NCBI GenBank assembly: GCA_043228905.1
Contig: JBHGNT010000001.1
Coordinates: forward strand, 34,844,001 to 34,908,000
Direction: 5' to 3'
Origin: Azolla caroliniana
Lineage: Eukaryota > Plantae > Polypodiophyta
Length of the DNA stretch: 64,000 nucleotides
Numbering within the stretch: the stretch's first letter is position 1; each line of letters starts with the position of its first letter. The position numbers were made by a program, and so were the translations under genes. The notes beneath the pieces were generated by a model. It was not told the origin of the DNA. It worked only from the letters and a program-made list of their open reading frames with translations, and searched no databases. Shown here one piece after another: positions 12,883-36,754 of this stretch.

Positions 12883-14797
12883 ATATATTACAAATACACA
12901 CATTACACATAATGATGGACACACAAAATGCACACATTCAAGTACACCCATCACCATGCAGATTGAGAAAAGAAAATCATCACGAGCCAAATTAAATGCT
13001 TGTCTCTATGTTAACCTTGATAAGCAACACCACCGAATCTTTCATGGGGTAGGACCTCAATTGTCCCCAAAGCGCATGTCACACAACCTTCTTCCGGATT
13101 CTTGACAATGCCAAGTTTAACTTTGGAGGATTTTTAATTAGTCTATTGTTTATTTGCCGAATTGGAGCCATTATTTTGATGGCCCTATTACAACCCATGA
13201 GTAAAAACACAAACTAGTGTCCCTGTTGGAGAGGGAGAGCTAATAGGTGACAAATGATAGCAGAATTTCCAAACAAGTTAGTAAGTTGGTCCTAAAGTTT
13301 GGGGGATGCCTATGCTTATGACCATGAAGAGAGTTTCAAAAAAATTGATTGGTTCTACAAGCTTGTCTCAAACATGACATGTGTTGCAACCTTTGGGCTC
13401 ACCCTTGATGATGAAGCTAGAGTGCAATTACAAACCCTCTCTAAATAAAAGCTAAATTATACTCAAATCCATGAAAGGGTTGGGGAGTTTGTAACTAGCT
13501 TTGCATGGGAAAATGCTCAAATATTTTAGATGCATCTTGCACACCAAGAGCCAACATAATCAATGTGAACTAAGACAAGACTTGTCCAAAAATAAACTTA
13601 TGAACATGTCGTCGCTAAGTTTTGCATGCGTGCTCGAGCAGAACCGTAGGGGCCTTGGACGGGGGAGTCAAAAGGTGTGAGGAGGTTGAGATTTGCACTC
13701 ACAAAATAATAGGCCCCTCGTTTAGTACGAGGCTCATCGGGCTTAGGAGCTTGTCGACAAAGTTAGAGTTTCAGACACAATTAGCTTGATGAACTCGATG
13801 AAGTTTAACACTTCATCATGGGGAAATATATATAAGTTATGATTCAAAAGTGGGTTTTCTTTTTACAATTGTTAGGCTTGACAATATGATTTCGGTGGTT
13901 TTTACAAGAACCAGTCACACGATTATACACAAATGATTATGAAACAACCAAAGGGGCTAAAATAATCCGACGAAGGCAAGTCTAGTGGGCTTCAAGCCCG
14001 ACTACCTCCGACAACTATGTTGCCTCGATTCGGAGTAGATCTCGTGCCACTACAACCTCCCTTTCGCAACCCGTCATCGAGTTAGCCCATCCTTATCTTG
14101 AAACTGCCATCACACACGACATTCTCCATCGTGGAGAAGACGACCGAGCCATCAAGTAGACCGCCACTGAAAGCCGAATAGGTTGTGACCGTTTAAGAAA
14201 CCCAAACCCAAAATATCTCAAGTAAGAAGAGAGTAGAAACCAAGCTCACAACCCCTAAGCTCATACTAATGAGGACCTCAAAACTCTTACAAGAAGAAGG
14301 GAACCCTAAACCTCTCCAACTAAGACAAAGATGGGAATAAAGAAGCAAACAAAACCCTAATCTCCAAGTTAGAAGAAGATGAGAAAAGAACTCAAGAACT
14401 CATGAACCCTAAATCCAAGAAGAAGAAGTAGAAGTAGAAAGAGAGAGAGATGAAACCCTAAATGGTACACCCTCTAAGGCAAAATGGGCCCAAAATGGGC
14501 GACCTCTTAATAAGCCTTCTTCTTCCCTTCTTATAAAGGAAAAAGAGGCACCTATTTTAGCATTCAATGGTTTTATTATTTCCTTGGCTTTAAAAGAAAA
14601 AAAAAGGGAGGGGGGGGGGATATAAAATACTCCCTAATACGTGATGGTAGAGGCTCAAACTCTGCACCCCTCTATATATACTAACACTTATTTATTATAT
14701 ATCTATTTTCACGTTTACATGTGCTTTGTGAAATGTACGTGGAACCTCGCGTTTTCTCACACTTGACACGCCATATCATGACATCTACCACCACCAA

Positions 14798-15027
14798 ACC
14801 ACACATCCTCCAGCATGTGCCAAAAAACAAAGTGATGTGGTGGGGCCAAAGGTTGTCAACCTTTGTTTTCTTCCTTCATTGTGTCATGAAGACATACATC
14901 TTGGCTTATCATACCACACATCCTCCAGCATGTGCCAAAAAACAAAGTGATGTGGTGGGGCCAAAGGTTGTCAACCTTTGTTTTCTTCCTTCATTGTGTC
15001 ATGAAGACATACATCTTGGCTTATCAT
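14798..15027. repeat. 115-bp tandem duplication spanning the host / 5' LTR junction
   Basis: 14798-14912 equals 14913-15027. Each copy contains flank, the TSD cattg and the first 31 bp of the LTR. Confidence 0.92.
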
Positions 15028-15362
15028 GACATTCATCTTGGCGAACCAGGAATCGAACCCATAACCTCTTGGTTTACATATTGTACTTTAACCATTGTAA
15101 TAACATATGTGAGATGTAATCATAATAATTATATATTTAGTTATTACGAGATATTTAGAACATTCTAGATTATTCTAGAATGTTCTTGAATATTTCATGA
15201 TTATATTTATTATTATTATTATTCATAAATATCTAAAATATTCTAGAACATTCTAGAATACTCCATAAGGGCCTATAAATAAGAGTCCATACACTCATCA
15301 CAACTCATTCGGTTCAACACCAGTCTTTAGCCCTTAGCCTACTCCTTGTAATCTTCTTTCTC
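14997..15362 (+). repeat. 5' LTR (truncated) of chromovirus 1
   Basis: Matches 20169-20534; I saw only one substitution. Identity stops abruptly at 15362. Confidence 0.92.
15158..15280 (+). promoter_or_regulatory. Heat-shock element arrays and TATA box in LTR U3
   Basis: GAAcaTTCtaGAttaTTCtaGAAtgTTCttGAA (15158-15190), TTCtaGAAcaTTCtaGAA (15241-15258) and TATAAAT (15274). The same motifs are in the 3' LTR at +5172. Confidence 0.75.
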
Positions 15363-15416
15363 CAATAACCCTAGCAAGCTTTCTTCTTTATCCTTCTTTC
15401 TTTTTCCCCCGCGGTT

Positions 15417-16544
15417 ATGGAGTCGGTCAGCAAGCAAGAGTATATGCGTGTCCTTTCGGAGCTCGATATGCTCACCACTAAGTTTGTGGCATTAGAGCAA
15501 GAAAATCAAAGGCTACTCGGGGATCTTCAACAAGTCAGTACTGAGAAAGCTCATCAATATGAGGAGTTATCACAACGGGTTCATCAACTTGAGGCTACTA
15601 TATTAACATTACGAGAACAAGCGGCGGGGGTTCAAAACTCCCCAAGGGAACCAAAGATTAGCCTCCCTGCCAAGTTTGATGGTACCAGATCTCTCTTTCG
15701 AGGTTTCCTGAATCAAGTTCGTTTGGTGATTCAGTTACATCCCAATCGGTATCCAACTGATGCTGCCCGTGTGGGATTAATAGGAACCTTGCTAAGCGGT
15801 ACAGCGTTAGCATGGTTTGCACCACTTCTTGAGAAGAAATCACCATTACTGGAGGATTTCGAGGCATTCGTTAAGGAGTTTCAAGCTAGTTTTGGAGATA
15901 CGGATAGCACTAGGACTGCAATAAACAAGATTCGAAGACTCCGACAAGGAGATCGTCCCGCTTCAGCTTATGCCGCAGATTTCCGTCTCTTGGCATGCGA
16001 CATCCCTTGGGATGAGGCAGCCTTAATGGATCAATTCCGTCAGGGTTTGCGTAACGATGTCAAAGATCTTCTTCTTACTTTCCATGAAGATCCAAAGTCT
16101 CTTACTGAAGCTATTAGCCGAGCTGTGCGATGTGATAATCGCCTATTTGAGCGACGTTCTGAACGTCAACAAATGTTACGCCGCCAACCGGAACATACAT
16201 ACGCTTCTATAGTCGCCACACCGCCACAAGGTTCTAGACCCGTTACGAGGGATGGTCCCACTCCGATGGAAATAGAGTCGACACAACGTCGAGGGCCCTT
16301 ATCAGATGCTGAGAAACAACGACGTCGGGCGCATCGCCTATGCCTCTACTGTGGTGGTCCAGGACATATAGCTGTGAATTGTCCACATAAACCCAGGCGT
16401 CAAGTTTACCAAGTAAGTGCACATGACAACCCTACATCAAGTTCTACTATCACTTCTAATAACTTAAGTACTAAGCCTAATAGCCCATGCCATGAGAATA
16501 GATTTGATGTCTTGAGCCAATTAGAGGATGTGTTAAACGAATAA
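15417..16544 (+). CDS. gag: Gag (Ty3/gypsy, PEG10/Sushi-like capsid with CCHC zinc knuckle)
   Basis: 375 aa; PAKFDG, LRQG, GL..DVKD, PTPMEI, CLYCGGPGHIAVNC. Confidence 0.93.
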   Translation: MESVSKQEYMRVLSELDMLTTKFVALEQENQRLLGDLQQVSTEKAHQYEELSQRVHQLEATILTLREQAAGVQNSPREPKISLPAKFDGTRSLFRGFLNQVRLVIQLHPNRYPTDAARVGLIGTLLSGTALAWFAPLLEKKSPLLEDFEAFVKEFQASFGDTDSTRTAINKIRRLRQGDRPASAYAADFRLLACDIPWDEAALMDQFRQGLRNDVKDLLLTFHEDPKSLTEAISRAVRCDNRLFERRSERQQMLRRQPEHTYASIVATPPQGSRPVTRDGPTPMEIESTQRRGPLSDAEKQRRRAHRLCLYCGGPGHIAVNCPHKPRRQVYQVSAHDNPTSSSTITSNNLSTKPNSPCHENRFDVLSQLEDVLNE

Positions 16545-16583
16545 GTCCGGCCAAAATAGGAGCCATTTGGTTGGACCATCCTA
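16532..16583 (+). other. Predicted -1 ribosomal frameshift signal (G_TTA_AAC plus H-type pseudoknot)
   Basis: Pol frame is -1 to gag and open from 16508. Heptamer at 16532-16538, 6-nt spacer, 11-bp stem 16545-16555/16566-16576, loop TAGGA pairs with TCCTA at 16579-16583. Conserved at 31664-31715. Confidence 0.75.
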
Positions 16584-19500
16584 GTTATGTAGAGTCAGTA
16601 CCTAGTTGTGGTTCCATTTCATCAAATCAAGTTAGTAGAGTTTTTTCTGCACAAGTCGAGCTTAGCACATCTACAGGTCATCGCGCCCTAGCCTCTGCCC
16701 TCCTAGATTCCGGAGCCAATTCTTGTTTCATGGATCGCGAGTTTGCATTGACTCAAAACATCATCTTGAAAAAACTCCCAAACCCAGTAGCTGTAGGAGT
16801 CATCGATGGTCGCCCTATAGCATCAGGAGATATAGTCGAAGAGTATGAACCAATTCGTGTAGTCCTAGGTAATTTGGCTAGTGTCATCTCATTTAACATC
16901 ATTAGTAGTCCGGAGCACTCTCTAGTTCTTGGTCTTCCTTGGTTTGAGTTACATAACCCAACCATTGATTGGAGAAAAAGAACTATTGAAGAGGTCACCG
17001 TACAATCCAAGTCTCTTGAAGCTCAAACTAAGGATCTAGGATCCCCCACAATTTCAACAATCTCTATACATCAATTACGAGAGGATGGAAGAAAGGAAGA
17101 CATGATGGTATTTGCGGTTTTAGCAACTCCCTCATCTAGCTCACAAGAATTGGGGGTCCAACTACCAAAGAAGTACATAGAATTCTCCGATGTGTTCGAT
17201 AAGGTGAAGGCTAATAGACTACCAGAGCATCGACCATATGATTGCCCAATTGATTTGCAGCCAGGAAAAGAGCCTCCATGGGGACCAATTTATAATCTTT
17301 CGCCCACAGAGTTAGAGGTTCTTCGAGAATATATCAATGAGAACTTGGCAAATGGTTTTATCCAACATTCAAAATCTCATGCTGGTGCACCCATCTTTTT
17401 CGTTAAGAAGAAAGATGGTACGCTTCGTATGGTCGTGGATTATCGAGGCTTGAATAAAGTGACCGTTAGAAACCGATATGCTCTCCCATTGATCTCAAGC
17501 CTTCTAGAACGCCTCAGTGAAGCAAAGTATTTCACGAAGTTAGATCTTCGAGGTGCCTACAACCTTGTTCGAATTCGTCCTGGGGATGAATGGAAGACGG
17601 CGTTCCGCACTCGCTATGGTCATTTTGAGTACACAGTGATGCCTTTTGGCCTCACGAATGCACCAGCAGTCTTCCAACATATGGCGAATGATATTTTTCG
17701 AGACTTCCTCGATATCTTCATCATTGTTTACCTGGATGATATCTTGATCTACTCAAAGACTCAAGAAGAACATGATATACATGTTCGCCAAGTTTTGCAA
17801 CGGCTACGAGAGTATGGTCTCTATGCAAAATTGGAGAAGTGTAGTTTCGACCAATGTCAAGTGGAGTTTTTGGGGTACATAGTCTCTTCAAATGGCATCT
17901 CTATGGATCCATCAAAGGTTCAAACAATTTTGGATTGGCAAACACCACAGTCCGTGCGAGATGTGCAATGTTTTTTGGGGTTCGCAAACTTTTATCGCAA
18001 GTTCATCAAAGATTATTCAAAAATTGTGTTGCCCCTCACTCAACTGACGCACAAGAATCGACCATTTGTATGGAGTATAGATGCGAACTCTGCATTTGAG
18101 GGTTTAAAGCAAGCATTTACATCCGCACCAATCTTAATCCATGTCGATCCAATGAGGCGCTTTATACTTGAAGCTGATGCATCGGATTTCGCACTCGGAA
18201 GTGTACTATCCCAAATTGGTGATGATGGTGAACTGCACCCGGTGGCTTTTCACTCACGAAAATTTGAAGCCGCAGAAATCAACTATGAGATTCACGACAA
18301 AGAGCTTCTTGCCATTGTGGATTCTTTTCAACAATGGCGTCATTTTCTGGAGGGTTCTTCTCAGCAGATTATTGTCTACAATGATCATAAAAATCTAACA
18401 TACTTTCAAAGTGCTCGAGTCTTGAATCGACGACAAGCTCGTTGGGCGCAGTTCTTAACTCGTTTCGATTTTGTAATTCTATATCGCCCTGGGATGCAAC
18501 AAGGAAAAGCAGATGCTTTATCTAGACGTTCGTATATGGAACTTCAACCTGGAGAGGCCGCATTTGAAAGCCAAAAGCAAATCCTCTTAGGTCCTGATCG
18601 TCTACGAATAATGGCAATGCATACCATCAACACACCGGGAGATTCAAGGCTTCTTGATTCCATTCGTGAGCAGATTGCGACTGATGCGTTCGCCCAAGAG
18701 ATTTTGAGCCATATTATCCCAAATCGTGCATCTAGCTCCCAAACTCAAAATCCTCGTCTAGACTACACCCAGTTTAGTTGGCATGATGGGTTACTTTTTC
18801 GACAAACTCTCTTGTATGTGCCTGACGGTCCTTCTCGACTCAAAGTCATGCAACAATGTCATGACACACCAATGGCGGGACACTTCGGCATCCACAAGAC
18901 TTTTGAGTTGATTTCTCGCCGATATTGGTGGCCACGGCTTCGCCATTTTGTTACGGATTATGTTCATAGCTGTGATACATGTTGCCGATCAAAAAAGCCT
19001 CGACATCATCCATATGGCTTATTACAACCAATGCCTATTCCGGAGAGCCCATGGAAATCTATTTCCTTGGACTTTATTACGGATCTTCCACCTTCCAAGG
19101 GATTTGATTCGATTCTCACGGTTGTCGATCGTTTTACGAAGATGGCACATTTCCTTCCATGCACAAAGACCATTACTAGTCAAGAGACAGCTGATTTACT
19201 CATGCGGGAGGTGTTTCGCCATCATGGTCTTCCGGATGATATTATCAGTGATCGGGGTCCCCAATTCATCTCGAAATTTTGGCGGCACATGTTCAAACTC
19301 TTACATACTTCTTGTAAACTCTCTTCCGGCTACCATCCAGAGACTAATGGGCAGAGTGAGCGCACCAACCAAACAGTCGAGCAATATCTACGTTGTTTTG
19401 TCAACTATCAACAAGATGATTGGGTGGATTTACTACCTTTGGCAGAATTTGCTTATAACAACTCCGAGCATTCTTCTACTGGATATTCCCCATTTTTTGC

Positions 19501-20176
19501 AAACATTGGGTACCATCCTCGTTGGACGATGCTTGAACATCCTGAACTCCCAAAAAACCCAGCTGCTGAAGATCGGCTCACTCGACTCCAAGAAGTTCAG
19601 GATATGCTTTTGCATCATTTATGTGAAGCCCAAAACACTCAAAAGAAGATTGCTGACCGTCATCGGCGTGATTCATCGACTACATTTCAAGTAGGCGATC
19701 GTGTATGGCTCTTACAAGGTAGCATTAAAACGACCCGACCTTGCTACAAATTGGATTATCAACGTTTTGGCCCATATGTCATAAGTGGTAAGATCAATGA
19801 TGTGACATTTCGTCTTGATCTTCCTCCTCATATGCGTCTTCACCCGGTCTTCCATGTTTCACTTTTGGAGCCCTACACAACGAGCTCTATTCCGGGTCGT
19901 GTTACACCTCCCCCACCTCCAATTGACGTTTCCAATGGCTCTGAATATGAGGTTGCCGCTATCCTCGACTCCAAGATCATTCGCAACAAACTATACTACT
20001 TGGTTGATTGGTTAGGCTATACACCTAATGATCGAACATGGGAGCCTGCCGAACATCTTGCCAATGCCTCTGACATGGTTGTTGCATTTCACAACCAATA
20101 TCCTCATAAACCAAGTCTGAACTCTTTTCTTCCGACTCGTGCAACTCGTCATCGAAAAGGGGGGATAATGTCATGA
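16538..20176 (+). CDS. pol: Pol polyprotein: protease, RT, RNase H, integrase, chromodomain (probably made as a Gag-Pol fusion)
   Basis: Uninterrupted ORF (track 16571-20176, no ATG start). LLDSGA, YLDD, ADASD/DHKNL/ADALSR, HHCC, D-D-E, GPY, chromodomain EYEVAAILDS...YLVDWLGY...TWEP. Confidence 0.93.
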   Translation, partial: RISPAKIGAIWLDHPSYVESVPSCGSISSNQVSRVFSAQVELSTSTGHRALASALLDSGANSCFMDREFALTQNIILKKLPNPVAVGVIDGRPIASGDIVEEYEPIRVVLGNLASVISFNIISSPEHSLVLGLPWFELHNPTIDWRKRTIEEVTVQSKSLEAQTKDLGSPTISTISIHQLREDGRKEDMMVFAVLATPSSSSQELGVQLPKKYIEFSDVFDKVKANRLPEHRPYDCPIDLQPGKEPPWGPIYNLSPTELEVLREYINENLANGFIQHSKSHAGAPIFFVKKKDGTLRMVVDYRGLNKVTVRNRYALPLISSLLERLSEAKYFTKLDLRGAYNLVRIRPGDEWKTAFRTRYGHFEYTVMPFGLTNAPAVFQHMANDIFRDFLDIFIIVYLDDILIYSKTQEEHDIHVRQVLQRLREYGLYAKLEKCSFDQCQVEFLGYIVSSNGISMDPSKVQTILDWQTPQSVRDVQCFLGFANFYRKFIKDYSKIVLPLTQLTHKNRPFVWSIDANSAFEGLKQAFTSAPILIHVDPMRRFILEADASDFALGSVLSQIGDDGELHPVAFHSRKFEAAEINYEIHDKELLAIVDSFQQWRHFLEGSSQQIIVYNDHKNLTYFQSARVLNRRQARWAQFLTRFDFVILYRPGMQQGKADALSRRSYMELQPGEAAFESQKQILLGPDRLRIMAMHTINTPGDSRLLDSIREQIATDAFAQEILSHIIPNRASSSQTQNPRLDYTQFSWHDGLLFRQTLLYVPDGPSRLKVMQQCHDTPMAGHFGIHKTFELISRRYWWPRLRHFVTDYVHSCDTCCRSKKPRHHPYGLLQPMPIPESPWKSISLDFITDLPPSKGFDSILTVVDRFTKMAHFLPCTKTITSQETADLLMREVFRHHGLPDDIISDRGPQFISKFWRHMFKLLHTSCKLSSGYHPETNGQSERTNQTVEQYLRCFVNYQQDDWVDLLPLAEFAYNNSEHSSTGYSPFFANIGYHPRWTMLEHPELPKNPAAEDRLTRLQEVQDMLLHHLCEAQNTQKKIADRHRRDSSTTFQVGDRVWLLQGSIKTTRPCYKLDYQRFGPYVISGKINDVTFRLDLPPHMRLHPVFHVSLLEPYTTSSIPGRVTPPPPPIDVSNGSEYEVAAILDSKIIRNKLYYLVDWLGYTPNDRTWEPAEHLANASDMVVAFHNQYPHKPSLNSFLPTRATRHRKGGIMS

Positions 20177-20717
20177 AGACATACATCTTGGCTTATCATG
20201 ACATTCATCTTGGCGAACCAGGAATCGAACCCATAACCTCTTGGTTTACATATTGTACTTTAACCATTGTAATAACATATGTGAGATGTAATCATAATAA
20301 TTATATGTTTAGTTATTACGAGATATTTAGAACATTCTAGATTATTCTAGAATGTTCTTGAATATTTCATGATTATATTTATTATTATTATTATTCATAA
20401 ATATCTAAAATATTCTAGAACATTCTAGAATACTCCATAAGGGCCTATAAATAAGAGTCCATACACTCATCACAACTCATTCGGTTCAACACCAGTCTTT
20501 AGCCCTTAGCCTACTCCTTGTAATCTTCTTTCTCATAATATAATCTCATTCCCATTTCTTATCTCTCACTTATACTTTTCTCTCTCTCGCATTCTCTCCC
20601 TTTTTCACTCTCTTTTGCTATCACTATCGCTATCTCTACCGCTCTCGCCATCTCTATCGTTATCGTTATCTCTATCGCCATCGCTCTCTCTCTGCTTCCT
20701 ACTCAAGAGTCACGACA
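20169..20717 (+). repeat. 3' LTR (complete, 549 bp) of chromovirus 1
   Basis: TG...CA termini, followed by TSD cattg. U5 contains ctatcg/ctctcg hexamer repeats. Confidence 0.92.
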
Positions 20718-20939
20718 CATTGCGCCTTGTCCGCGGTAGATCCACCATCATCTTTGACATCATCTCCACAAAATTTTCTTCTTCCATCTCCATCCTCCCT
20801 TACTGCTCTTTCATGTCGAGTTCACCACTTCATTAGGTTTTGAAAACTTGTTACTAAGTGCGGATCGTGAGGTGAAACTGCTGAGGTTTTGGACTCGAAG
20901 GATTTAGGGCTCAGAAGCACAACACAAACGTAGGGGAGG

Positions 20940-22764: not shown

Positions 22765-24394
22765 ATGTGTCAAGAAAAGTATCAAGAAAACACAATGGTA
22801 TCATGGAACACTATTATCACAAGCTTGTTTGACCATGGGCTCAGTGAGGAAGTGTTGGAATGCATGGAGGACATGGAACATGAGGACATTTCATTGGATG
22901 GTACCACCTATGTTTGTAGCTTGCATATATGTAGCAATGCTAAATTCAATGAAAGGGCCCAAAAACTACATGTTGAGATTGTTATCACAGGTTTGGATGA
23001 CCATTCTTTCATCGGGAGTTCATTAGTGCATATGTATGCTGCATGTGGGCTACTTGTTGAGGAGATGACATAAATGGCTCTCCAACATGCATAGATGAAG
23101 ATGTGAGAGTACTTACAAATACAATCATTGAGATGTATGGAAAATGTGGGATCATGGCAGATGCTCATAAGGTGTTTGATGAAATGTTGTGCTCAACTGC
23201 AATGTCATGGAATGCATTGATGACAGGCCACACATGATGTGGACCGTGTGAGGAAGTGTTTCATCTCTTTCACGAGGTCACAAATCAAAGCATATGTCCA
23301 GATTGCGTGATGTTCCTTAAGGTTGTAGCTGATATGCCTTTTTTTAAAACTAATGGAAGGATATTTTGTTTTAAAAAAACACAAGGGTAAGTCACTTACC
23401 TTTCTATTTTGAAGGCATGTGGCAATTTAGGGGCTATAGAAAAAAGCAAACAAATTCATGATCAATTTAGGAGTCGAAACTTCATAGAGAAGGATATTGT
23501 GCTTGGTAACACTTTAGTTGATATGTATGTTAAATGTGGAATGCTTGACAAAGCCCAAAAAGCACTCGAAGACCATTTTAATCGCAATGTCATCACATGG
23601 TCTGCAATAATTTCAGGGTATGTTCAACATGGACAAAGCCATGACGCACCCGATAGTTTCAAAAGAATGCAAAATGAGTGTTTATCACATGATGTTGTTA
23701 CATTTATTTGCACTCTAAAGGTCTGTGGAAGCATGGGTGCTATAGACAAGGGCAAACAAATTCATGATGAGGTCGTGAAAAGGAAATTGCTAGAGAAGAA
23801 TATAGTTCTTGGTACTACTCTCGTTCATATGTATGCTAGATGTGGTATGCTTGAGAAAGCGAGAAAAGTATTGGAAAAGCTTCATCTTCGAGATGTGATT
23901 GCTTGGTCAACCCTTATTGTTGGTTATGCTCAACAAGGACAAGGACATGAAGCCCTGAAGTGTCTCAAACACATGGAAAGTGAGGGCATATCTCCTGACA
24001 ACATAACATTATTATGTGTGATGAGTGCAAGTGCTCACTCTAGGCTCGTAAACGATGCCAAAATGCTTTTTGAGATTATGACTACAAAATATTGTATTTC
24101 TCCAAACTTAGAGCATCTTAATTGCATGGTTGTAGTATTTGGATGTGGGGGGCAATTTGATAAGGCTATTTTAGTGATCAAGGCAATGCCATTTTTTGAG
24201 TATTCAGCCATGATAGGGATTTCACTATTGGGTGCTTGGAAGATTGTCTTTTGATCAAGCCATACAACTAGATAATAATGGTGCGGCGGCATATGTTCGC
24301 ATGGCTGATATATTTGGAAGTGCTGGTATGTTAGAGGATGAAAAAAAAATTGAAACCCTGATCAGAATAAAACATGATTCTTGGAGAAAGCAAG
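22765..24394 (+). pseudogene. PLS-class pentatricopeptide repeat (PPR) pseudogene
   Basis: PPR motifs VSWNTII, GSSLVHMYAACG, LGNTLVDMYVKCG, VIAWSTLIVGYAQQGQG, LEHLNCMV. Stops at 23073 and 24254, a short retroposed insert near 23322-23379, and chromovirus 2 inserted at the 3' end. Confidence 0.85.
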
Positions 24395-24716
24395 TGCCAT
24401 GATATGGCAAGACTGAAACCCATAACCTTATGTTACATGGGTCGAGCTCTTGACCATTACACTATCTATTGTAATACGTAGGATATTATTTTTATTTAAG
24501 TTTTACTATAGAAAATTAATGTATATTCTATATTTCTCTGGAACATTCTAGAAGCTTCAGGACTACTCCTGAGAACACTATAAAAGGAGGCACAAGGCAT
24601 TATTTCGAACCAAATCGGTTCAACGCCAGTCTTAAGCCTCCTAGCCTTCCTTATGTATTCTTCTCACATAATATATCGCTGTCATCATCATTTTCTCTCC
24701 CTCAATCTCTCACTCA

Positions 24717-24787
<71 letters not shown>

Positions 24788-24880
24788 CTTCTCTCGAGTG
24801 TTCTACACCCTCTATTGCTCTTAATACTAATATTCCTCTCTTAGTACTAATTCTTCTCTGTTTCAGTACTATTCCTGACA
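24395..24880 (+). repeat. 5' LTR of chromovirus 2 (HSE 24541-24558, TATA 24579, (CA)n expansion 24719-24785)
   Basis: Aligns with 35462-35866; termini tgccatg...cctgaca. Confidence 0.9.
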
Positions 24881-25823
24881 GTTTGAACCAATTTCTTCCT
24901 CCTTCCGTCTCCTCCTTTCCTCCTCTTCCTTTTATCTTCTTACATATCCCATTTTTTCCGGTCTTCTTTCCGGTTTCCCTCATCTTCTTACCCCTTTTTT
25001 CCCGTCATACTAATCCTCTTATCCTCCCCAATAAAATGGAAATTGTTAGCGCTAAGGAATACCAATATGTTTTCTTGGAGCTCCAGGGCTTAAAAGAGAA
25101 ATTTGTAGCAAGAAAATCACCGTTTGTTGGGGGATCTTCAACAAATGGCGTTGGAAAAACAACAACACGAGGAGCCGATGTTACGTGTACAACAACTTGA
25201 AGCGACTATTGTATCACTACAACAACACCAAGGATCAAGCACTCATGGGATTCACAAAGAACCCAAGATCGATCTTCCTGCAAAATTTGATGGGACCCGA
25301 TCACAGTTTAGAGGTTTTATAAATCAGGTATGTTTAGTGATTCAAATGCATCCTTCTTGATATCCCACCGATGCATCACGAGTGGGACTAGTAGGCACTC
25401 TATTTAGTGGCTCAACATTGGCATGGTTCGCTCCGTTGTTAGAAAAGGAATCTCCATTGCTAAACAATTTTGAAAAATTTATAAGTGAGTTTAAAGCCTG
25501 TTTTGAAGATACTGACAACATAAGAACATCAATCAACAAAATCTGAAGATTACGCCAAGGTGATCGTCTAGCCTCCGCATACACTACAGATTTTCACCTA
25601 CTCGTTGTCGATATCCCTTGGGATGATCAAGCATTGATGGAGCAATTTAGTTATGGTTTACACAACGATGTCAAGGATTTACTCTTGACCTTCCCCGAAG
25701 AACCAAAGTCATTAACAGAAGCAATCAGTCGCGCGATGAGATGCGACAACCACCTTTTCGAACGACATTCGGAACGGCAATTCCAAATGCCGAGGGCAAG
25801 TTCAGAGCCCACCTACGCCTTAA

Positions 25824-26516
25824 TGTTGAGAATCAACGCTTCGATTCACCTTCTTCGCTCGGCCACAACCGAGTAATCGCGGATCAATGGAGCAGAAAAT
25901 AGGAACCACAAAGAGAAACAAAACGCGAGTACACAGGGATTAACGTGGAAAACCCAAACGGGAAAAACCACGGGAGTACAAGACTCCAACCCAACACTAT
26001 ACAGAGAAGTATACAATGGCGAGCTGCAAGGCGACGACCTTGAGCTCGCTGTCCTCGCCACAGGCGGCGGAAATACACAGAGGCGTCTACCTCTTCCTCT
26101 CTCGCGCTCTATCTCTCTCTCTCTCTCTCTCACGGCTGCTTACACTTCACTCCTCTTGAGTGGAAAAACAGAAAAATGAGAAGCAACAACTAAAACTGTT
26201 TGCTCTAAGTCATATTTATACACATATGACTTTCGGGCTATTTACAAATATAGCCTCAAGGGGCCCTTGGCAAACATATTCACAGATATGTCCCCGCATC
26301 CGGATCTCTCTCCGGGTACATACGTCATCCGGCTCCGTAACCGGGGTCTTCAGCATCCGGCTCCGTAACCGGGGTCTTCATCATCCGGATCCGTAGCCGG
26401 GTACTCTTCATCCGGCTTCATGCCGGGTACTCTTCATCATACGGTTCCGTAACAGCCTCCGGGCTTGCCGTCATTCATCTCCGGACATCCCATCCGGAGG
26501 GACCGAAATCCCAACA
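25824..26516 (-). repeat. 3' LTR of copia element
   Basis: Nearly identical to 30628-31324; I saw about 2 substitutions plus a (CT)n length difference. Confidence 0.95.
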
Positions 26517-26526
26517 AACTCCCCCT

Positions 26527-29500
26527 TCACTTCGGCATGGGATGTCTCTCCAATCCGACCCTCTTCCGGCATGCTTCCAGCTTGTCGGGTGTGAGCACCT
26601 TGGTCAGCATATCCGACCCGTTCTCGTCCGTATGGATCTTCGCCAGCACGAACTCCTTGTCTTCTATCCTTTCCCGGATCCAGTGGTATCTACGCTGGAT
26701 GTGTTTCGTCCGGGAATGGTAGGCCGCGTTCTTCGCAAGGTGGATGGCACTCAGACTATCGCAGTAGAGTCGGTACTCCTCCTGCCGGATACCGAGCTCT
26801 CTAATGAAGTCCTTCATCCATATTATTTCCTTGCCGGCTTCAACAGCCGCCATGTACTCCGCCTCCGTGGTTGACAGCGCAACCGTCTTCTGCAGCCTCG
26901 ACTGCCACGAAACAGCTCCACCTGCATACATCATCACATACCCTGATGTGGACCGGCTGGTATCTGCATCAACAGACATCCGAATCGGTAAAGCCGTCGA
27001 ATTCAGGCTTACCGGAGCCGAATCGGAGGCACACGTTTGCCGTGCCCTTCAGGTATCGGAGTATCCACTTGACCGCGTTCCAGTGCTCTTTGCCGGGATT
27101 GCTCATGTACCGGCTCACCACTCCAACTGCATATCCTATGTCCGGTCTTGTACACACCATTGCGTACATCAAGCTTCCGACGGCAGAGGCATATGGTACT
27201 TTCATCATGTCCTCCTTCTCAGCCTTTGTCTTGGGGCTTTGCTTGCTGGACAACTTGCAGTTTGCCGGGAGGGTTGACCCGACCGGTCTTGCTTCCGACA
27301 TGTTGAACCGGTGAAGCACCTTTGTCACGTACTTCTCCTGTGACAGCCACAACTGCTTCTTCTTCCGGTCCCGGATGATGTGCATCCCTAGTATTTGCCT
27401 CGCCGGACCCAGGTCCTTCATTGAGAAGGTTCGGTGAAGCGCTTTCTTCAGCGTCCGTATCTTGACCTGGTCCCGCCCGACGATCAACATGTCGTCCACG
27501 TACAGGAGGAGTATTAGAGAGTCTCCTCCTTCGAACTTCTTCACAAACACGCAGTGATCAGACTGCGTTTTGTGGTACCCTTCGTCGGTCATGAAGGAGT
27601 CGAACTTCCGGTACCATTGCCGGGGAGCCTGCTTCAGTCCGTAAAGGCTCTTCTTCAACCGGCATACCAGGTGCTCCTTCCCTTTCTTCTCGAATCCTTC
27701 CGGTTGCTGCATGTAGATCTCTTCTTCGAGGTCACCGTGAAGGAATGCCGTCTTCACGTCCATCTGTTCTACCTCGAGGTCCATGCTTGCCGCTATGCTC
27801 AGCACCGTCCGGATGGAGGTCATCTTCACTACCGGGGCAAATATCTCGTCGAAGTCGACGCCCTTCTTCTGCTGAAACCCCTTCACCACGATCCTGGCTT
27901 TGTATCTCGGGGGGTTTCCGGCATCTCCCGGTTTCAGCTTGAACACCCACTTGTTTCGAAGTGCCCGCTTTCCTTTCGGCAACTCCACAAGTTCGTATGT
28001 GTGGTTCTCATGCAGGGAATCCATCTCGTCCTGCATGGCACTCAACCACCTGCGGCTATGGGTGTCATGCTTTGCTTCTTCAAAGCTCTCCGGCTCCCCC
28101 TCGTCGGTTAGCAGCACGTGCTCTGGTTCCGGAAATCTCCGGGGGGCCCTTCTCTCTCTTAGAGGATATCTCCGTTCCGGAGCTTCGGTAACCGGTTCTT
28201 CCGATTCTTCTTCATCCGAATCCATTTCGGGATCGGGGCCGGTTCCGGTATCATTTTCATCTTCTTCGGCCGGTTCTGTTTCTTCACCGTCTTCGGCCGG
28301 ATCCTCGAGTGCTAACCGGTCCCTTGCCGGTCGGGACTGCTCCTCGTAGAGTTGATCCTCACCGGTCGACTTGGAGCTCTTCATCTTCTTCTCCGACTCC
28401 AAGTCGGCGAGTGTCTTGTCCTCCATGAAGATGATGTCTCGACTCCTGAATATCTTCTTGTCGACCGGGTCCCATACTCGGTAGCCGAACTCGTCGTCGT
28501 CGTAACCGAGGAATATGCATGGCCGGGTCTTTGGATCTAGCTTTCCTCTCCGGTCCTTTGCCACATGCACGTAAGCGAGACACCCGAACACCTTCAGATG
28601 CCGGTAGGACACTTCCTTACCGGTCCACACTTTCTGCGGCGTGTCTCCGTCCAAAGGTACTGAGGGTGATCTATTTATCACATACGTCGCCGTCGACATT
28701 GCCTCAGCCCAAAATCCCTTGGGTAATTTCGCATGTGCCAGCATACTCCGGACCCTCTCCATTATGGTCCGGTTCATCCTCTCGGCCAGCCCGTTCAGTT
28801 CCGGCGTCTTCGGCACAGTAAACTCGAGCCGGATTCCCTTCGAGCGACAGTACTCCTGGAACTGCCCCCGGTATTCCCCTCCGTTATCCGCTCGTATCGC
28901 TTTCAGCTTCTTGCCGGATTCTCTTTCCACTCTCGCGTGGAGTTCTTTGAAGACGGACAATACTTGGTCCTTTGTCTTCAACGGTGCCGTCCACAGCTTC
29001 CGGCTGTGATCATCTATGAATGTTACGAAGTACTGGGCTCCGCCATGTGACTTCGTTTCTACCTGACACACATAAGTGTGTACCAACTCCAATGGTACAG
29101 TACGTCTCGTCGGTGGCCTTGAGTGGAAAGAGGTTCGGTTCTGCTTACCGGCCAGGCAATCGGTGCACTTCTCCAGGTGCACATGCTTCACTGGAATAAG
29201 GTTGTCTTCTGCAAGCCTCTTCATCCCCTTCTCACTCATGTGGCACAGTCTTTTGTGCCACAGCTCACCGGCAGTGTCGGCTGCCACATTCAGCTCTTCC
29301 GGACATAACCGGGCATTCATCAGGTACAGGGTGTTGACTTTCCGGGCCCGAGCCACTATCAGGCTCCCCTTGCTGAACTTCATGACACCGTTCCGGATGC
29401 TACCCGTGTAGCCTTCATCATCTAGCCTCCCGGCCGAAATCAGGTTCAGTCGGACCTCCGGAACGTGTCGGACATTCTTCAGCAGCATTTTGCATCCGGT

Positions 29501-30598
29501 CGGGGTTGTCACACACACGTCTCCTATGCCGGCAATCCGGCACGTACCTTCATTCCCCATCCGAACACAGCCATGCTCACCGGCTGTGTAGGATGAGAAG
29601 TATCTTCTCTCCGGGGTCAGGTGGAACGATGCTCCGGAATCAACCACCCAGGTCGTCTCATCGCCGGCAATGTTTAGTTCACCTTCTTCGGTGATGAGCA
29701 TGATCTCCTCTTCACTTGCCGCGAGTGCCGTCGTTCCTTTCCGGTCCTGTCCTCGCCGATCCGAACCATTCCGGTCCGTGGCTCCCCGGTATGCATCGTT
29801 TCTCTCCGGTGACTTCTTCGAATCGGTGTTGTCGGTTCCATTGTCTTTTCGGTAATGCCGACAATTCTTTCGGAAGTGCCCCGGCTTCCCACAGTGGAAG
29901 CATCTTGGCCTTCCTCTTGACTGCGACCGGGTCCCCGACTTCTCCCGTCTTTGCGGACTCCGGTTCCATTGTCTTCCCCGATCCGATTCGGTAAACAGCA
30001 TCTTCGGGTCGGAGGCCGGTTCCTTATCTCTCCGACGCGCTTCTTCGTTCAAAATACTTGTCTTTACCGTTTGTAAGGACAAGTTATCTTCGGTGCAGGA
30101 GGTGCTGAGAGTCACCACCAAGTTCTCCCAGCTTTCCGGCAATGTACACATCAGGATGATGGCTTGCATTGCATCCTCCAACGGGAACTTGATCGCCGCA
30201 AGCTGATTCACGAATCCCATGAACGTGCTTACGTGTTCCACCATACTCTCGCCGTCCCGGTACTTGAGATTCACAATCTTCCTCATCAGGGAGGTCCGGT
30301 TCAACGCATTCTTCCTCTCGTAGAGGCCCGGCAGCTTCTTCCACATCTCATATGCGTTGGTGTCGTTCGCCACATGTTGTAGGACGCTTACATCGACATA
30401 TTGTCGGATCGTCGCTACGGCTTTCCGGTTCAGGAGCTTCCACTCCGACTCAAGTACCCCCTTCGGTATTTCCGACCTGTCAATCGGTTCGTACAGGTCC
30501 CGAACAATCAGAAGATCCTCCATCTTGATCTTCCAGTCGGCGTAATTCTGTGCATTCAGCACCATCATCCCCGGCTGCCCGCTGCCGCTGCCTTCCAT
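26527..30598 (-). CDS. Copia Gag-PR-IN-RT-RH polyprotein, frameshifted at the start of RNase H
   Basis: ATG at 30598; CFHCGKPGHFRKNC, WVVDSGAS, WHKRLCH...CTDC, YVDDML. The frame breaks near 26978 (GFTDSD / MSVDADTSRSTSGY) and RNase H continues in ORF 26527-26979. Confidence 0.9.
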
Positions 30599-30627
30599 TT
30601 TCTGCAACAGTCGCTCTGATACCAGTT

Positions 30628-31324
30628 TGTTGAGAATCAACGCTTCGATTCACCTTCTTCGCTCGGCCACAACCGAGTAATCGCGGATCAATGGAGCAGA
30701 AAATAGGAACCACAAAGAGAAACAAAACGCGAGTACACAGGGATTAACGTGGAAAACCCAAACGGGAAAAACCACGGGAGTACAAGACTCCAACCCAACA
30801 CTATACAGAGAAGTATACAATGGCGAGCTGCAAGGCGACGACCTTGAGCTCGCTGTCCTCGCCACAAGCGGCGGAAATACACAGAGGCGTCTACCTCTTC
30901 CTCTCTCGCGCTCTATCTCTCTCTCTCTCTCTCTCTCTCACGGCTGCTTACACTTCACTCCTCTTGAGTGGAAAAACAGAAAAATGAGAAGCAACAACTA
31001 AAACTGTTTGCCCTAAGTCATATTTATACACATATGACTTTCGGGCTATTTACAAATATAGCCTCAAGGGGCCCTTGGCAAACATATTCACAGATATGTC
31101 CCCGCATCCGGATCTCTCTCCGGGTACATACGTCATCCGGCTCCGTAACCGGGGTCTTCAGCATCCGGCTCCGTAACCGGGGTCTTCATCATCCGGATCC
31201 GTAGCCGGGTACTCTTCATCCGGCTTCATGCCGGGTACTCTTCATCATACGGTTCCGTAACAGCCTCCGGGCTTGCCGTCATTCATCTCCGGACATCCCA
31301 TCCGGAGGGACCGAAATCCCAACA
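30628..31324 (-). repeat. 5' LTR of copia element
   Basis: Direct repeat of 25824-26516, immediately followed on the minus strand by the PBS. Confidence 0.95.
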
Positions 31325-31676
31325 CTTAAAGGTAGCGAAACCTTTTCCGAGGGAGTCATATAATGCGTCTCCAGTGAATACTCTGACTCCAATGGAGATT
31401 GACACTACATGTCGTCGCGGACCATTATCGGAAGAAGAAAAGCAGCGACTTCGAGCAAATCGACTATGTCTTTATTGCAGTGGACCAGGGCATATTGCAG
31501 TAAATTGTCACCATAGGCCAAGGAGACAAGTAAACCAAATAGTTGCTAGTTCTAATTGTACTAAACCCGAGTCTATTTTAGTAGGAATATCTTATAGTTC
31601 TAATAGTACTAATAGCCCAAATCTAGCGAAAAAATTTGATGTCCTTAGTCAATTAGAAGAAGAGTTAAACGACTAA

Positions 31677-34600
31677 GTCCATCCAAAATAGGAGCCGTTT
31701 GGTTGGACAACCCTAGATCTGTGGAACCCATTAGTGGTTCCATTCCCTCTAAGCAAGTTAGCAATTTGTTCGTAGCCCATGTAACAGTTAGTACTAAAAG
31801 TACCCCTCTAGTACATGTCTTAGCACTTCTAGATTCCGGAGCTAATTCTTGCTTCATGGATAGGAATTTTGCCCAAGCTCATTAGATATCTCTCAGAAAA
31901 ATTCCCTGTCCAGCCTCTATAGTAGTCATTGATGGTTGTCCATTGCTTCCGGAAATATCATAGAAGAGTTAGAGCTCGTTAATATTGTCCTAGATAATTT
32001 AGCGTGTGTAGTATCATTTAATATAATTAGTATCCCAGAACATCCCATTGTTTTAGGATTACCATGGTTCGAATTACATAACCCAGACATATATCGGAGA
32101 ACAAGAGAAATCCGTGTCCAACCTTTGTAGTAGTCATTGATGGTTGTCCATTGCTTCCGAAAATATCATAGAAGAGTTAGAGCTCGTTAATATTGTCCTA
32201 GATAATCTAGCGTGTGTAGTATCATTTAATATAATTAGTATCCCAGAACATCCCATTGTTTTAGGATTACCATGGTTCGAATTACATAACCGAGACATAG
32301 ATTGGAGAACAAGAGAAATCCGGTGTTGACAAGCCCAATGATCTACTCATAAGATTGCAACCATTTCGCTACATCAGTTGCAGGAAGAAGGACGCAAGGA
32401 AGAAATGTTTCTCTTCGCAATATCAGTAAAACCCTCCGCACCACTAAAGAGGAGTCCACCGTTCAACTTCCAAAGAAGTATCATCATTATGCCGATGTGT
32501 TCGATAAAGTACAAGCCAATACGCTTCCTCACAATCGACCGTATGATTGTCCCATCGATTTACAACTGGGAAAAGAGCCACCATGGGGACCGATCTACAA
32601 TTTGTCACCAACCGAGCTAGAAGTCCTTCGAGCCTATATAGAGGAAAATTTGGAAAATAGTTTCATTTGACATTCGAAATCTCCAGCCGACGCACCCATT
32701 TTCTTCGTCAAGAAAAAGGATGGATCACTTTGTCTTGTTGTAGATTACCGTGGCTTGAATAAGGTCACCATTAGAAATAGGTATGCACTTCCCCTTATCT
32801 CAAGTCTTTTAAAACAGATCAATGGTGCAAGGTTTTTCACGAAGATCAATTTACGAGGAGCATATAACCTCATACGGATCCGACCAGGAGATGAATGGAA
32901 GACCACATTTCGCACCAGATATGGGCACTTCGAGTATACGGTCATGCCGTTTGGTCTCACTCATGCGCCATCAGTCTTCCAGCACATGGCAAATGATATA
33001 TTCTGAGATCTCTTGGATGTTTGTTTGATCATCTATTTGGATGATCTACTGGTTTATTCGAAGACCCAATAAGAGCATGATTCTCATGTATTGTTAGTAC
33101 TAAAACGACTTCAAGAACATGGTCTTTACGCAAAGCTGGAAAAATGTAGTTTCAGGTGCAACCAAGTGGAATTTATGGGCTATGTCATCTCCTTGGAAGG
33201 CATCTCCATGGATCCAACTAAGGTCAAAACGGTGGTAGAGTGGCAAACTCCGCGTTCGTTGCGAGATGTGCAATGCTTTTTAGGCTTTGCCAATTTCAAC
33301 CGCAAGTTTATACAGGATTACTCAAAGCTTGTTCTGCCTCTCACACAACTTACTAAGAAGGGACAATCGTTTGTTTGGTCTGAAGAAGCGGACATGGCTT
33401 TTGAGAATCTTAAGAAGGCATTTACATCGGCTCCTATTCTAGCTCACATTGATCCGGAAAAACCATTCATCATGGAAGTGGATGCGTTGGATTTCACATT
33501 GGGTAGCATTATGTCACAACAAGGTAATGATGAAAAGCTACATCTTGTGGCTTTCCACTCATGCAAGTTTGACGCCACCGAAATCAACTATGAAATTCAT
33601 GATAAGGAGTTATTAGCAATAGTGGACTCTTTTACACAATGGAGGCATTTTCTAGAGGGATCCTCTCATCAAGTTGTCGTATTCAATGATCACAAAAACC
33701 TTGCCTACTTTCAGAGTGCTCGTGTGTTAAATCGACGTCAAGCTCGGTGGGCCCAATTCTTCATGCGTTTCGACTCCAAAATTACATATCGTTTGGGAAG
33801 CACCAAGGGAAGGCAGATGCATTATCACGACGTTCATATCTAGCCCTGCGTCTTAGTGAACTAGCTTTCGATAACCAAAAGCAAGTAATCTTGGAACCGA
33901 CACGACTGCAAGCAACACAGGTCTCTGGCATGCCCTTGGATTCCCACGTTATTGATACCATACGCGAGGACTTGAAGACAGATGCTTTCGCCCAAGCCAT
34001 TCTATCACAAATTGATCCCTCTCGAGAATCTCGTTCACAGTCGCAACAACCAGGTACGAACTATCAACAATTCGAATGTCATGATGGATTACTATTCTTT
34101 AAGAAACTCTTTTATGTTCCTAATGGTTCTTGCCGCCTTCGAGTAGTCCAAAACTATCATGACACATATACAACTAGGCATTTCGGTAGTACTAAGATAT
34201 TAGATTTAGTACAACGATCATTCTAGTGGCCTTGTATGTGACAATTTGTTGAAGATTTTGTTTGGACTTGTGATACATGTTGCAGAGCAAAAATGCCAAG
34301 GCGTCATCCATATGGTTTATTAGATTCACCATTACCAATTCCAAGCAAGCCGTGGCAATCCATTGCTCTAGATTTCATCACAGATCTTCCAGTATCTAAG
34401 GAATTCAATGCGATTTTAACAGTAGTAGATCGATATACGAAGATGGATCATTTCCTGCCATGTACTAAGGAAATCTCCAGTGAAGAAACCGCCGAAATTG
34501 TCATGCGTGAAGTATGTTGGCATCATGTCCTTCTTGATAATACCATCAACGAACGTGGACCCCAGTTCGTCTCGAAATTCTGGAAGCACCTTTTTAAAAT

Positions 34601-35461: not shown

Positions 35462-35866
35462 TCTCATGATATGGCAAGACTCGAACCCATGACCTTATGT
35501 TTCATGGGTCGAGCTCTTGACCATTACACTATCTATTATAATACGTAAGATATTATTTTTATTTAAGTTTTACTATAGAAAATTAATGTATATTCCAGAT
35601 TTCTCTGGAACATTCTAGAAGCTTCAGGACTACTCCTGAGAATACTATAAAAGGAGGCACAAGGCATTATTTTGAACCAAATCGGTTCAACGCTAGTCTT
35701 AAGCCTCCTAGCCTTCCTTGTATATTCTTCTCACATAATATATCGCTATCATAATCATTTTCTCTCCCTCGATCTCTCTCTCTCTCTCTCTCCTTCTCTC
35801 GTGTGTTCTACACCGTCTATTCCTCTTAGTACTAATTTCTTCTCTGTCTCAATACTATTCCTAACA
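35462..35866 (+). repeat. 3' LTR of chromovirus 2
   Basis: Aligns with 24395-24880, ends cctaaca followed by TSD gcaag. Confidence 0.9.
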
Positions 35867-36754
35867 GCAAGATTCATATGAACATGCCATGGATGTCTAT
35901 GTCAATGAGCATACTATGGATGTCTATATTGATCATGGATGAGTTGATAGATCTGGTGGGTTTTAACAACTCATAAACATGAACATACCATTAATATCTA
36001 TATCAATGAGCATGTCATGGATGCATTTACTTATGAGATTAACATGGATTTCTATATCGATGGTGCTTGTAAATAAGGGAACCGGAATCTGCAACTTATG
36101 AACATGAATATATCATGGATGTTGATAAACATGCAATGAAATTTCTGCCCATAATGCATAGATCTAGGGGAACTTGAGTTCACAAATCAAGGGTCATGAA
36201 CCCAAGCTCAGGGCTTGGAGAAAGCAAGGAATATTGAACATCAATGTACAAAAAACTATGTGTGGTTATTGTAAATACACATCAAATTGGCCACGATGAG
36301 AGTACAAGGGAATCGGTTGGTATATCCAACACAACTTTTATATTTCTTATGATTTTATAATACTAGGGCGTATCTTTTTGTCAAAAAAAAACACAAGGGT
36401 GGCGCAATGCCACAAGCTAGTTCTAGAGACCCACTTATTCTAAAGCCCTTGTCCTTGAAATAGTTAAAGAGTGCTACCTTTTCAAATTGAATATGATTTT
36501 GTACAAATCTCTTAGGAAGCTTATACATTAGTTGTTAAATTGAGTATGTGAGTTTGTGTGTTTGCATGGGATCAAATAGAGAGAGGGTTTGTTGCACAAG
36601 GGAATAATGCTCATTTGGAAATTGAATTGGAGCACTACCATAGGAAGGCCAAATGACATATGTTCAATTGCATAATGTTGTTATAAGCATACATATATGC
36701 ATGTATGCATCACATTTATAACTATATCATACAATATATAAGGTACTAATTCTT

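What the first reader, a model, noticed from the sequence alone, without database searches (positions are those of the whole stretch)
15158..15280. Heat-shock element arrays in gypsy chromovirus LTRs: a candidate heat-activated Ty3/gypsy lineage
Seen: seven consecutive alternating nGAAn pentamers with one mismatch (15158-15190), and four more perfect pentamers (15241-15258) about 15 bp upstream of TATAAAT. Chromovirus 2 has GAAcaTTCtaGAAgcTTC (24541-24558, also in its 3' LTR) at the equivalent position. Established: three or more inverted nGAAn units bind HSF trimers, and the best-known plant heat-activated retrotransposon, ONSEN, is a copia. Inference: HSF-driven transcription is a conserved trait of this Tcn1-like lineage, and element 1 has intact ORFs to express.
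Basis: partly seen in the sequence, partly recalled or inferred. Interest (0 to 1): 0.72.

Follow-up and report, generated by a model that had tools for sequence, protein, structure and literature searches.

The report
Heat-shock promoters in fern gypsy retrotransposons
A large group of jumping genes in a fern carries perfect heat-shock-element motifs just upstream of its TATA box in thousands of copies, so these elements are likely switched on by heat much as ONSEN is in Arabidopsis, although heat induction is untested.

Summary
Observation confirmed. Both LTRs of two self-priming (Tcn1-like) gypsy chromoviruses carry perfect 4-unit heat-shock elements (HSEs) 15-20 bp above TATA; 6 sites in the window against about 0.01 expected. 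The host is a fern. Genome-wide there are 5,872 GAA-first 4-unit HSEs (control 54), 4,516 of them 12-30 bp above TATAAA. In a 1.2 Mb sample, 25 of 25 such HSEs lie in Tcn1-like LTRs; 0 of 22 LTR pairs of other lineages have even 3 units. Across clade A families the GAA/TTC cores and their register to TATA hold while the spacers vary. Host small-HSP promoters use the same motif. Best reading: ONSEN-like, HSF-driven promoters (0.65); no expression data were available. Two corrections: the sister clade B mostly lacks HSEs (27 of 30) and carries CATGCA repeats; and element 1 has lost the U5 end and primer site of its 5' LTR, so it is likely a dead-end copy despite open ORFs. Precedents: ONSEN (copia), Macrostomum gypsy HSEs (validated), Cryptococcus TCN3/TCN12 (putative HSEs). 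I found no paper on HSEs in a plant gypsy lineage, and no earlier scan note on it.

The parts
14992..14996 (+). Left target-site duplication of element 1 (CATTG; right copy 20718-20722)
14997..15362 (+). Element 1 5' LTR: U3 and start of R only; 214 bp covering the U5 end and primer-binding site are absent (break near 15355)
   Evidence: junction unique in genome
15158..15190 (.). Distal HSE array, 7 units with 1 mismatch (perfect 4 units at 15173-15190)
15241..15258 (.). Proximal perfect 4-unit HSE inside a longer in-register degenerate array
15274..15280 (+). TATA box (TATAAAT)
15307..15317 (+). 11-nt self-primer; predicted transcript 5' end, 33 bp below the TATA start
   Evidence: pairs with the primer site of sibling L008; covaries across families
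15417..16544 (+). gag ORF, 375 aa (Retrotrans_gag, Ty3_capsid, zinc knuckle)
16508..20176 (+). pol frame (-1 to gag): protease-like start, RT, RNase H, integrase, chromodomain with Y/W/Y cage residues
20154..20165 (+). Polypurine tract
20169..20717 (+). Element 1 3' LTR, complete (549 bp), HSEs at 20330-20362 and 20413-20430, TATA at 20446; 1 mismatch to the 5' LTR over 366 bp
24395..24880 (+). Element 2 5' LTR (TSD GCAAG at 24390-24394 and 35867-35871)
24541..24558 (.). Element 2 perfect 4-unit HSE; TATAAAA at 24579
24881..24893 (+). Element 2 primer-binding site, complementary to its own R region near 24612 (self-priming type)
25824..31324 (-). Copia element nested in element 2 (LTRs 99% identical; no HSE run)
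35462..35866 (+). Element 2 3' LTR, HSE at 35608-35625, TATA at 35646; element 2 ORFs are in pieces

Best explanation
The U3 regions of a multi-family clade of self-priming gypsy chromoviruses in a fern carry perfect 4-unit heat-shock elements at a fixed distance above the TATA box, which host heat-shock factors likely bind under heat to drive the element's RNA, as shown for ONSEN. Shown: the motif, its position, its copy number, its restriction to this lineage, and the pattern of conservation. Inferred: two HSF trimers would bind the 4-unit site (a second pair the distal array in family 1); Pol II would start about 33 bp below TATA at the 11-nt self-primer; that RNA would be both mRNA and template. 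Element 1 in the window could be transcribed and supply proteins but likely cannot be copied itself.
For: Window: 6 perfect 4-unit sites against about 0.01 expected. Genome: 5,872 GAA-first 4-unit sites against 54 for the reversed control; 4,516 lie 12-30 bp above TATAAA (control 2); TTC-first plus TATA 1,095 (control 6; overlaps the former in part). 1.2 Mb sample: 25 of 25 perfect runs of 4 or more units lie in Tcn1-like LTRs (24 clade A by match to non-HSE LTR parts, 1 clade B by inspection); 5 of 7 self-priming LTR pairs have 4 units in both LTRs, 0 of 22 other LTR pairs have 3 (3 tandem-array rows dropped). Chromodomain-anchored: 9 of 12 clade A 3' LTRs, 0 of 6 other chromoviruses. TATA/primer-anchored: 21 of 30 clade A LTRs have 4 proximal units, 2 have 3, 7 none (6 non-LTR rows dropped). 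In 13 distinct haplotypes core diversity is 0.08, spacer diversity 0.51 and 0.37. Family 1: 29 of 29 readable loci of 30 keep both arrays. Family 2: 22 of 30 keep 4 units, 4 keep 3, 4 none. Host: 10 HSF DNA-binding-domain matches; 9 of 30 HSP20 loci have a perfect run of 3 or more units within 700 bp upstream, 4 of them 4 units, against 57 runs per 1.2 Mb. In Brassicaceae copia elements 4-unit sites went with up to thousand-fold induction (PMC5059998, passages).
Against: No expression, binding or methylation data bear on it. P. patens RLG1, a chromodomain gypsy family, is repressed by heat (PMC7466625, section 17; its LTR was not seen). Within family 2 core and spacer are equally conserved (0.98 and 0.98), so the selection signal rests on between-family differences among related sequences, and the three core units were chosen after viewing the data. 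Some spacer positions are invariant too. Clade B is abundant (1,358 TATA/primer sites) while mostly lacking HSEs, so HSEs are not needed for success in this host. Several clade A families have long degenerate arrays with only 3 or no perfect units. None of 79 metagenomic relatives has a 4-unit site.
Confidence: 0.65

Rival explanations
1. HSFs bind the arrays, but the output is not mainly heat: expression follows development, drying/ABA or oxidative stress, or a repressing class B HSF sits on the site.
For: P. patens RLG2 (gypsy) is induced by ABA as well as heat, and RLG1 is expressed in unstressed protonema. Some clade B families combine HSEs with CATGCA repeats. That plant HSFs act outside heat and that class B factors repress is recalled, from no call.
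Against: Perfect 4-unit sites next to TATA tracked strong heat induction in Brassicaceae and were needed for it in Macrostomum.
Confidence: 0.15
2. The arrays are by-products of tandem duplication of a 10-bp palindromic unit in AT-rich U3, or sites for another factor, and resemble HSEs by coincidence.
For: U3 regions are built of repeats; some families show long imperfect TTCTAGA-type arrays; TTC-GAA spacers are mostly TA; all copies descend from few ancestors, so the large counts are not independent events.
Against: GAA-TTC spacers differ between families (ca, ac, gc, gt, cc, ct, at) while the cores and the register to TATA stay; the same words stand in host HSP20 promoters.
Confidence: 0.1
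3. The HSEs are genuine HSF sites but nearly all copies are kept silent by methylation, so heat gives no transcript in living plants; the motif is a relic of past activity.
For: Thousands of copies; pol is depleted of CG and CHG, which suggests long exposure to methylation.
Against: 7 of 7 sibling LTR pairs examined are identical (chosen as closest to the query), so copying is recent. The HSE-to-TATA block of family 1 has no CG or CHG (weak, p about 0.05, and not true of family 2), as in ONSEN.
Confidence: 0.1

Closest known systems
ONSEN/COPIA78 and other heat-responsive Brassicaceae copia families (PMC3907296, PMC5059998; passages read)
   Same: Perfect 4-unit nGAAn element in the LTR; family 1 HSE-TATA block free of CG/CHG; young copies.
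   Different: Here Ty3/gypsy chromovirus, fern host, thousands of LTRs across several families against 8 full-length ONSEN copies in Col-0; binding and induction are shown for ONSEN and untested here.
HSE-bearing Ty3 elements of Macrostomum lignano, clades Mag, CsRN1, Gmr1/Osvaldo (PMC12801592; abstract and part of results read)
   Same: Gypsy superfamily, canonical HSEs in LTR promoters.
   Different: Animal host, other clades, HSEs gained independently per family, validated by reporter mutation; the authors call it the second validated case after ONSEN.
Cryptococcus TCN3 and TCN12 (PMC12810828; passages read)
   Same: Fungal LTR elements (TCN3 stated to be Ty3/gypsy) that move at 37 C and have putative HSEs in the LTR.
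   Different: Fungal host; HSE function not shown; their relation to this clade was not tested here.
Physcomitrium patens RLG1 and RLG2 (PMC7466625; passages and section 17 read)
   Same: Gypsy families of a non-seed plant; RLG1 has a chromodomain; RLG2 is induced by heat and ABA.
   Different: RLG1 is repressed by heat; no HSE analysis in the parts read; their LTRs were not available to compare.
Tcn1 clade of chromoviruses (PMC6317226, PMC2864245; passages read)
   Same: Chromodomain with aromatic cage, no tRNA primer site, self-priming, fungal nearest relatives, non-seed plant.
   Different: Reported there from mosses and lycophytes; a PCR survey of ferns did not find it. No named Tcn1 sequence was in my tree.
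Helitron-borne HSEs of Caenorhabditis (PMC6927752; abstract and headings seen)
   Same: A transposon family supplies the majority of a genome's HSEs.
   Different: DNA transposon, animal, with ChIP and RNA evidence of rewired host genes; no such data here.

Membership tests
Ty3/gypsy chromovirus | LTRs with TG...CA ends, 5-bp TSD, PPT; pol order RT-RNase H-integrase-chromodomain | tested here: met
Tcn1 clade | Chromodomain with aromatic cage | tested here: met
   Y, W and Y present in the element 1 chromodomain (cage positions recalled from HP1); missing in the other chromovirus of this genome
Tcn1 clade | No tRNA primer site; self-priming | tested here: met
   11-nt R-region/primer-site duplex, -14.9 kcal/mol in sibling L008; the two sides change together in three LTR types. 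Predicted, not shown biochemically.
Tcn1 clade | Groups with named Tcn1 / Tf1-Sushi elements in a tree | tested here: inconclusive
   Quick integrase tree only: clades A (99) and B (98) are sisters (84), near a Cunninghamella protein and apart from Tanacetum, Haematococcus and the tRNA-primed chromovirus; no named Tcn1 row was available
Tcn1 clade | Host range in mosses and lycophytes | tested here: not met
   Host is a fern by one host gene (best named hits Adiantum 50%, Ceratopteris 47%); this is a range difference, not a structural one
ONSEN-type heat-activated LTR element | Perfect 4-unit HSE in the LTR above TATA | tested here: met
ONSEN-type heat-activated LTR element | HSE conserved among copies and related families | tested here: met
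   (clade A; patchy in clade B)
ONSEN-type heat-activated LTR element | Promoter free of CG and CHG | tested here: inconclusive
   0 CG and 0 CHG in 15158-15280, but 3 CG and 1 CHG in the whole U3; element 2 has 3 CHG in its block
ONSEN-type heat-activated LTR element | HSF binds the LTR; heat induces RNA and extrachromosomal DNA | not testable with these tools
   No RNA holder listed
ONSEN/COPIA78 family itself | Ty1/copia domain order | tested here: not met
   gypsy order with chromodomain

The most novel reading that the evidence does not exclude
An HSF-driven promoter is an old trait of the Tcn1-like lineage, carried from the common ancestor of clades A and B (and possibly from fungi, since the HSE is read in all eukaryotes and would let a transferred element work at once in a plant). 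In this fern it has seeded over 5,000 perfect HSE-TATA cassettes, most of the genome's strong HSEs, enough to compete for HSF or to put neighbouring genes under heat control, while sister families swapped the HSE for CATGCA (RY-like) repeats and so moved to another host programme.
Probability: 0.15. Interest if true: 0.8.

Novelty: new member of a known kind. Interest (0 to 1): 0.5.

Why it matters
The validated cases of HSE-driven LTR elements named in the papers read are ONSEN (copia, Brassicaceae) and Macrostomum gypsy families. This would add a plant gypsy lineage in a fern, at far larger scale: 4,516 LTR-type HSE-TATA cassettes against 33 HSP20 matches. It gives a built-in comparison in one genome (HSE-bearing clade A against mostly HSE-less clade B) for testing how transposon promoters switch host regulators, and it predicts heat-linked genome change in a fern.

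Tried and rejected
Expression: no RNA holder listed; laying X1 (probably DNA) and X2 contigs says nothing on expression or heat. Cross-species test: 79 metagenome loci, mostly 36-56% identical and fungal-like, many without a full LTR, held 13 three-unit runs and no four-unit run in 495 kb; only L211 has HSEs above TATA, and it resembles a clade B family of this genome (L553-type), so it is not distant support. Viral contigs: no relative of the integrase; 80 pattern loci checked, of 120 matches, had no 3-unit run. Named Tcn1 reference: none among hits. The careful tree did not finish; only the quick tree is reported, 4 intended rows gave no usable segment. Antisense tRNA-like stretch in U3: no ARAGORN or Rfam match. 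First guess that the host was the moss P. patens: dropped. The gag query was in the wrong frame (corrected), so gag identities are not used. The 200 kb next to the window held no LTR element and one 4-unit run outside any. Two of the six sampled 200-kb regions (C12, C16) were picked because family copies lay there, so the 1.2 Mb sample is blind to HSEs but not random. Supplements were not opened; those of PMC7466625 (RLG2 sequence) could bear on novelty.

Full report
Observation. 15158-15190 holds seven alternating GAA/TTC units at 5-bp spacing with one mismatch; 15241-15258 holds four perfect units 15 bases above TATAAAT (15274); 24541-24558 and 35608-35625 hold four perfect units 20 bases above TATAAAA. 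The window has six perfect 4-unit sites, all in these LTRs, against shuffle means of 0.00 and 0.01.

Anatomy. Element 1 (14997-20717, TSD CATTG) has an open gag (375 aa) and an open pol in the -1 frame with RT, RNase H, integrase and chromodomain. Its LTRs differ at 1 of 366 shared bases. Its 5' LTR is incomplete: LTR-to-LTR spacing is 5,172 against about 5,386 in siblings, and alignment with sibling L008 shows 214 bp missing over the U5 end and primer-binding site. The junction occurs once in 523 Mb, as expected if this copy cannot be reverse-transcribed. Element 2 (24395-35866, TSD GCAAG) is older (20 mismatches in 325 LTR bases), has broken ORFs and holds a nested copia. The host is a fern by one host gene: best named hits Adiantum and Ceratopteris.

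Where transcription should start. There is no tRNA primer site. In intact siblings an 11-nt stretch 33 bases below the TATA start pairs with the site just inside the 5' LTR, and both sides change together in three LTR types. Self-priming is predicted for most Tcn1 elements (PMC6317226, passages); that Tf1 uses the first 11 bases of its RNA is recalled. This places the likely start at about 15307 independently of the HSE, so the arrays sit in the proximal promoter.

Family and genome. The element 1 LTR gave 1,380 candidates (40 scored); 29 of 30 fetched loci could be read and all 29 keep both arrays; 7 of 7 LTR pairs among them are identical. The element 2 LTR gave 3,544 candidates; of 30 loci 22 keep four units, 4 keep three, 4 none. 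Genome-wide, the GAA-first 4-unit pattern occurs 5,872 times (control 54), 4,516 times 12-30 bases above TATAAA (control 2); the TTC-first form above TATAAA occurs 1,095 times (control 6). These counts reflect copying, not independent origins.

Is it specific to the lineage? In six 200-kb regions, all 25 perfect runs of four or more units lie in Tcn1-like LTRs; 5 of 7 self-priming LTR pairs carry four units in both LTRs and 0 of 22 other pairs (copia, Athila-like, tRNA-primed chromovirus, unassigned) carry three; 3 tandem-array rows were dropped. Anchored on the chromodomain, 9 of 12 clade A 3' LTRs and 0 of 6 other chromoviruses have four units; the three misses look interrupted, deleted or decayed. 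Anchored on TATA plus primer, 21 of 30 clade A LTRs (4 of them the window's own) have four proximal units, 2 have three, 7 none. Among 13 distinct haplotypes from 27 in-register LTRs, diversity is 0.08 in three core units and 0.51 and 0.37 in the spacers; the sequences are related and the units were chosen after viewing, so this is suggestive, not a test with a probability. Within family 2 alone core and spacer are equally conserved. Twenty further clade A LTRs picked because the HSE searches had mostly missed them: 16 have three or more perfect units somewhere in the 300 bp above TATA (3 of them four or five), and 19 have a six-unit score of 15-16 of 18 against shuffle maxima of 12-14.

The limit of the trait. 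The 30 best chromodomain loci (of 6,462 candidates) belong to a sister group, clade B (43-56% identical over the integrase end). 27 of 30 have no perfect 3-unit run; 29 of 30 carry three to seven CATGCA/TGCATG words above TATA against 0.24 expected per 250 bp and none in the window's LTRs. That this is the RY motif of B3-domain factors is recalled. Of 20 more clade B LTRs, 3 have four units, 4 have three, 13 none. Clade B has 1,358 TATA/primer sites, clade A 5,439 (control 55). A quick integrase tree gives clade A 99, clade B 98, sisters at 84. HSEs thus mark all clade A families sampled and some clade B families, which fits an ancestral HSE with later swaps, though gain in parallel is not excluded.

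Host machinery. The genome has 10 HSF DNA-binding-domain matches and 33 HSP20 matches. 9 of 30 HSP20 loci show a perfect run of three or more units in the 700 bp examined, 4 of them four units (the stretch cut some promoters short). The LTR sites are as strong as the best host sites.

Mechanism. Shown: motif, geometry, lineage restriction, conservation pattern, recent copying. Inferred (0.65): heat-activated HSF trimers would bind the 4-unit site, recruit Pol II at TATA, and give an RNA whose 5' end primes its own reverse transcription. Four-unit sites are bound by two HSFA2 trimers and went with up to thousand-fold induction in Brassicaceae (PMC5059998, passages). Rivals: HSF-bound but driven by other cues or repressed (0.15), repeat by-product (0.1), real but silenced (0.1). 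P. patens RLG1, a chromodomain gypsy, is repressed by heat while RLG2 is induced by heat and ABA (PMC7466625, section 17), so lineage alone does not predict the response.

Comparison and novelty. It works like ONSEN (PMC3907296, passages) but is not of that family. HSE-dependent gypsy promoters are validated in Macrostomum (PMC12801592, abstract and results part), putative HSEs are noted in heat-mobilised Cryptococcus TCN3 and TCN12 (PMC12810828, passages), and heat-induced gypsy transcripts are listed for conifers in a review (PMC9780303, passages). Ten literature searches of the open library turned up no description of HSE arrays in a plant gypsy or Tcn1 lineage or in fern LTRs; subscription papers are not covered. 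PMC11656987 (passages) cites only ONSEN for HSEs. A PCR survey found no Tcn1 in ferns (PMC2864245, passages); membership here meets the structural marks but lacks a named reference in the tree. Earlier scan notes held nothing on this.

Verdict. A real, lineage-wide HSE promoter in a fern chromovirus clade; a new member of a known kind, notable for scale and for the HSE/CATGCA swap in the sister clade; heat activation is likely but untested. Interest 0.5.

Noticed in passing
L181-L210; L540-L559: Sister clade B LTRs carry 3-7 CATGCA/TGCATG (RY-like, name recalled) words above TATA in place of HSEs; some families carry both. Possible switch from HSF to B3-domain factor control.
   Followed up: partly
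window 15040-15110 and 24405-24470 (minus strand): The 5' part of U3 in both elements reads as a tRNA-like stretch in antisense, with A-box-like and B-box-like words (motifs recalled); similar words stand in clade B LTRs. ARAGORN and Rfam found nothing. Possible Pol III or TFIIIC site.
   Followed up: partly
window 15307-15317; L008; G000 C5 sample; clade B loci: Self-primer and primer-binding site change together in three LTR types, a covariation sign of Tf1-like self-priming in a fern.
   Followed up: partly
L181-L210, between TATA and self-primer: Clade B LTRs have an inverted repeat that pairs with the self-primer region just upstream of it (1,358 sites); role unexplained.
   Followed up: no
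window 16532-16580: At the gag-pol overlap a G-TTA-AAC heptamer precedes the gag stop and an 11-bp hairpin (-14.3 kcal/mol): candidate -1 frameshift signal.
   Followed up: partly
window 14795-15024: A 115-bp tandem duplication spans the left junction of element 1 (flank plus first LTR bases), so it arose after insertion.
   Followed up: no
window 23391-24394: Element 2 inserted right behind a PPR gene or pseudogene; its 5' LTR HSE faces away from it.
   Followed up: no
window 59035-59271 (-): An HSP20-family match lies in the window; no perfect HSE in the 700 bp examined upstream (L398).
   Followed up: partly
L134, L144: A further LTR family with a 4-unit HSE about 24 bp above TATA and a variant primer word; no match to the window's LTRs.
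   Followed up: no
G000:C9 about 17.9-18.3 Mb: Cluster of about 15 HSP20 matches.
   Followed up: no
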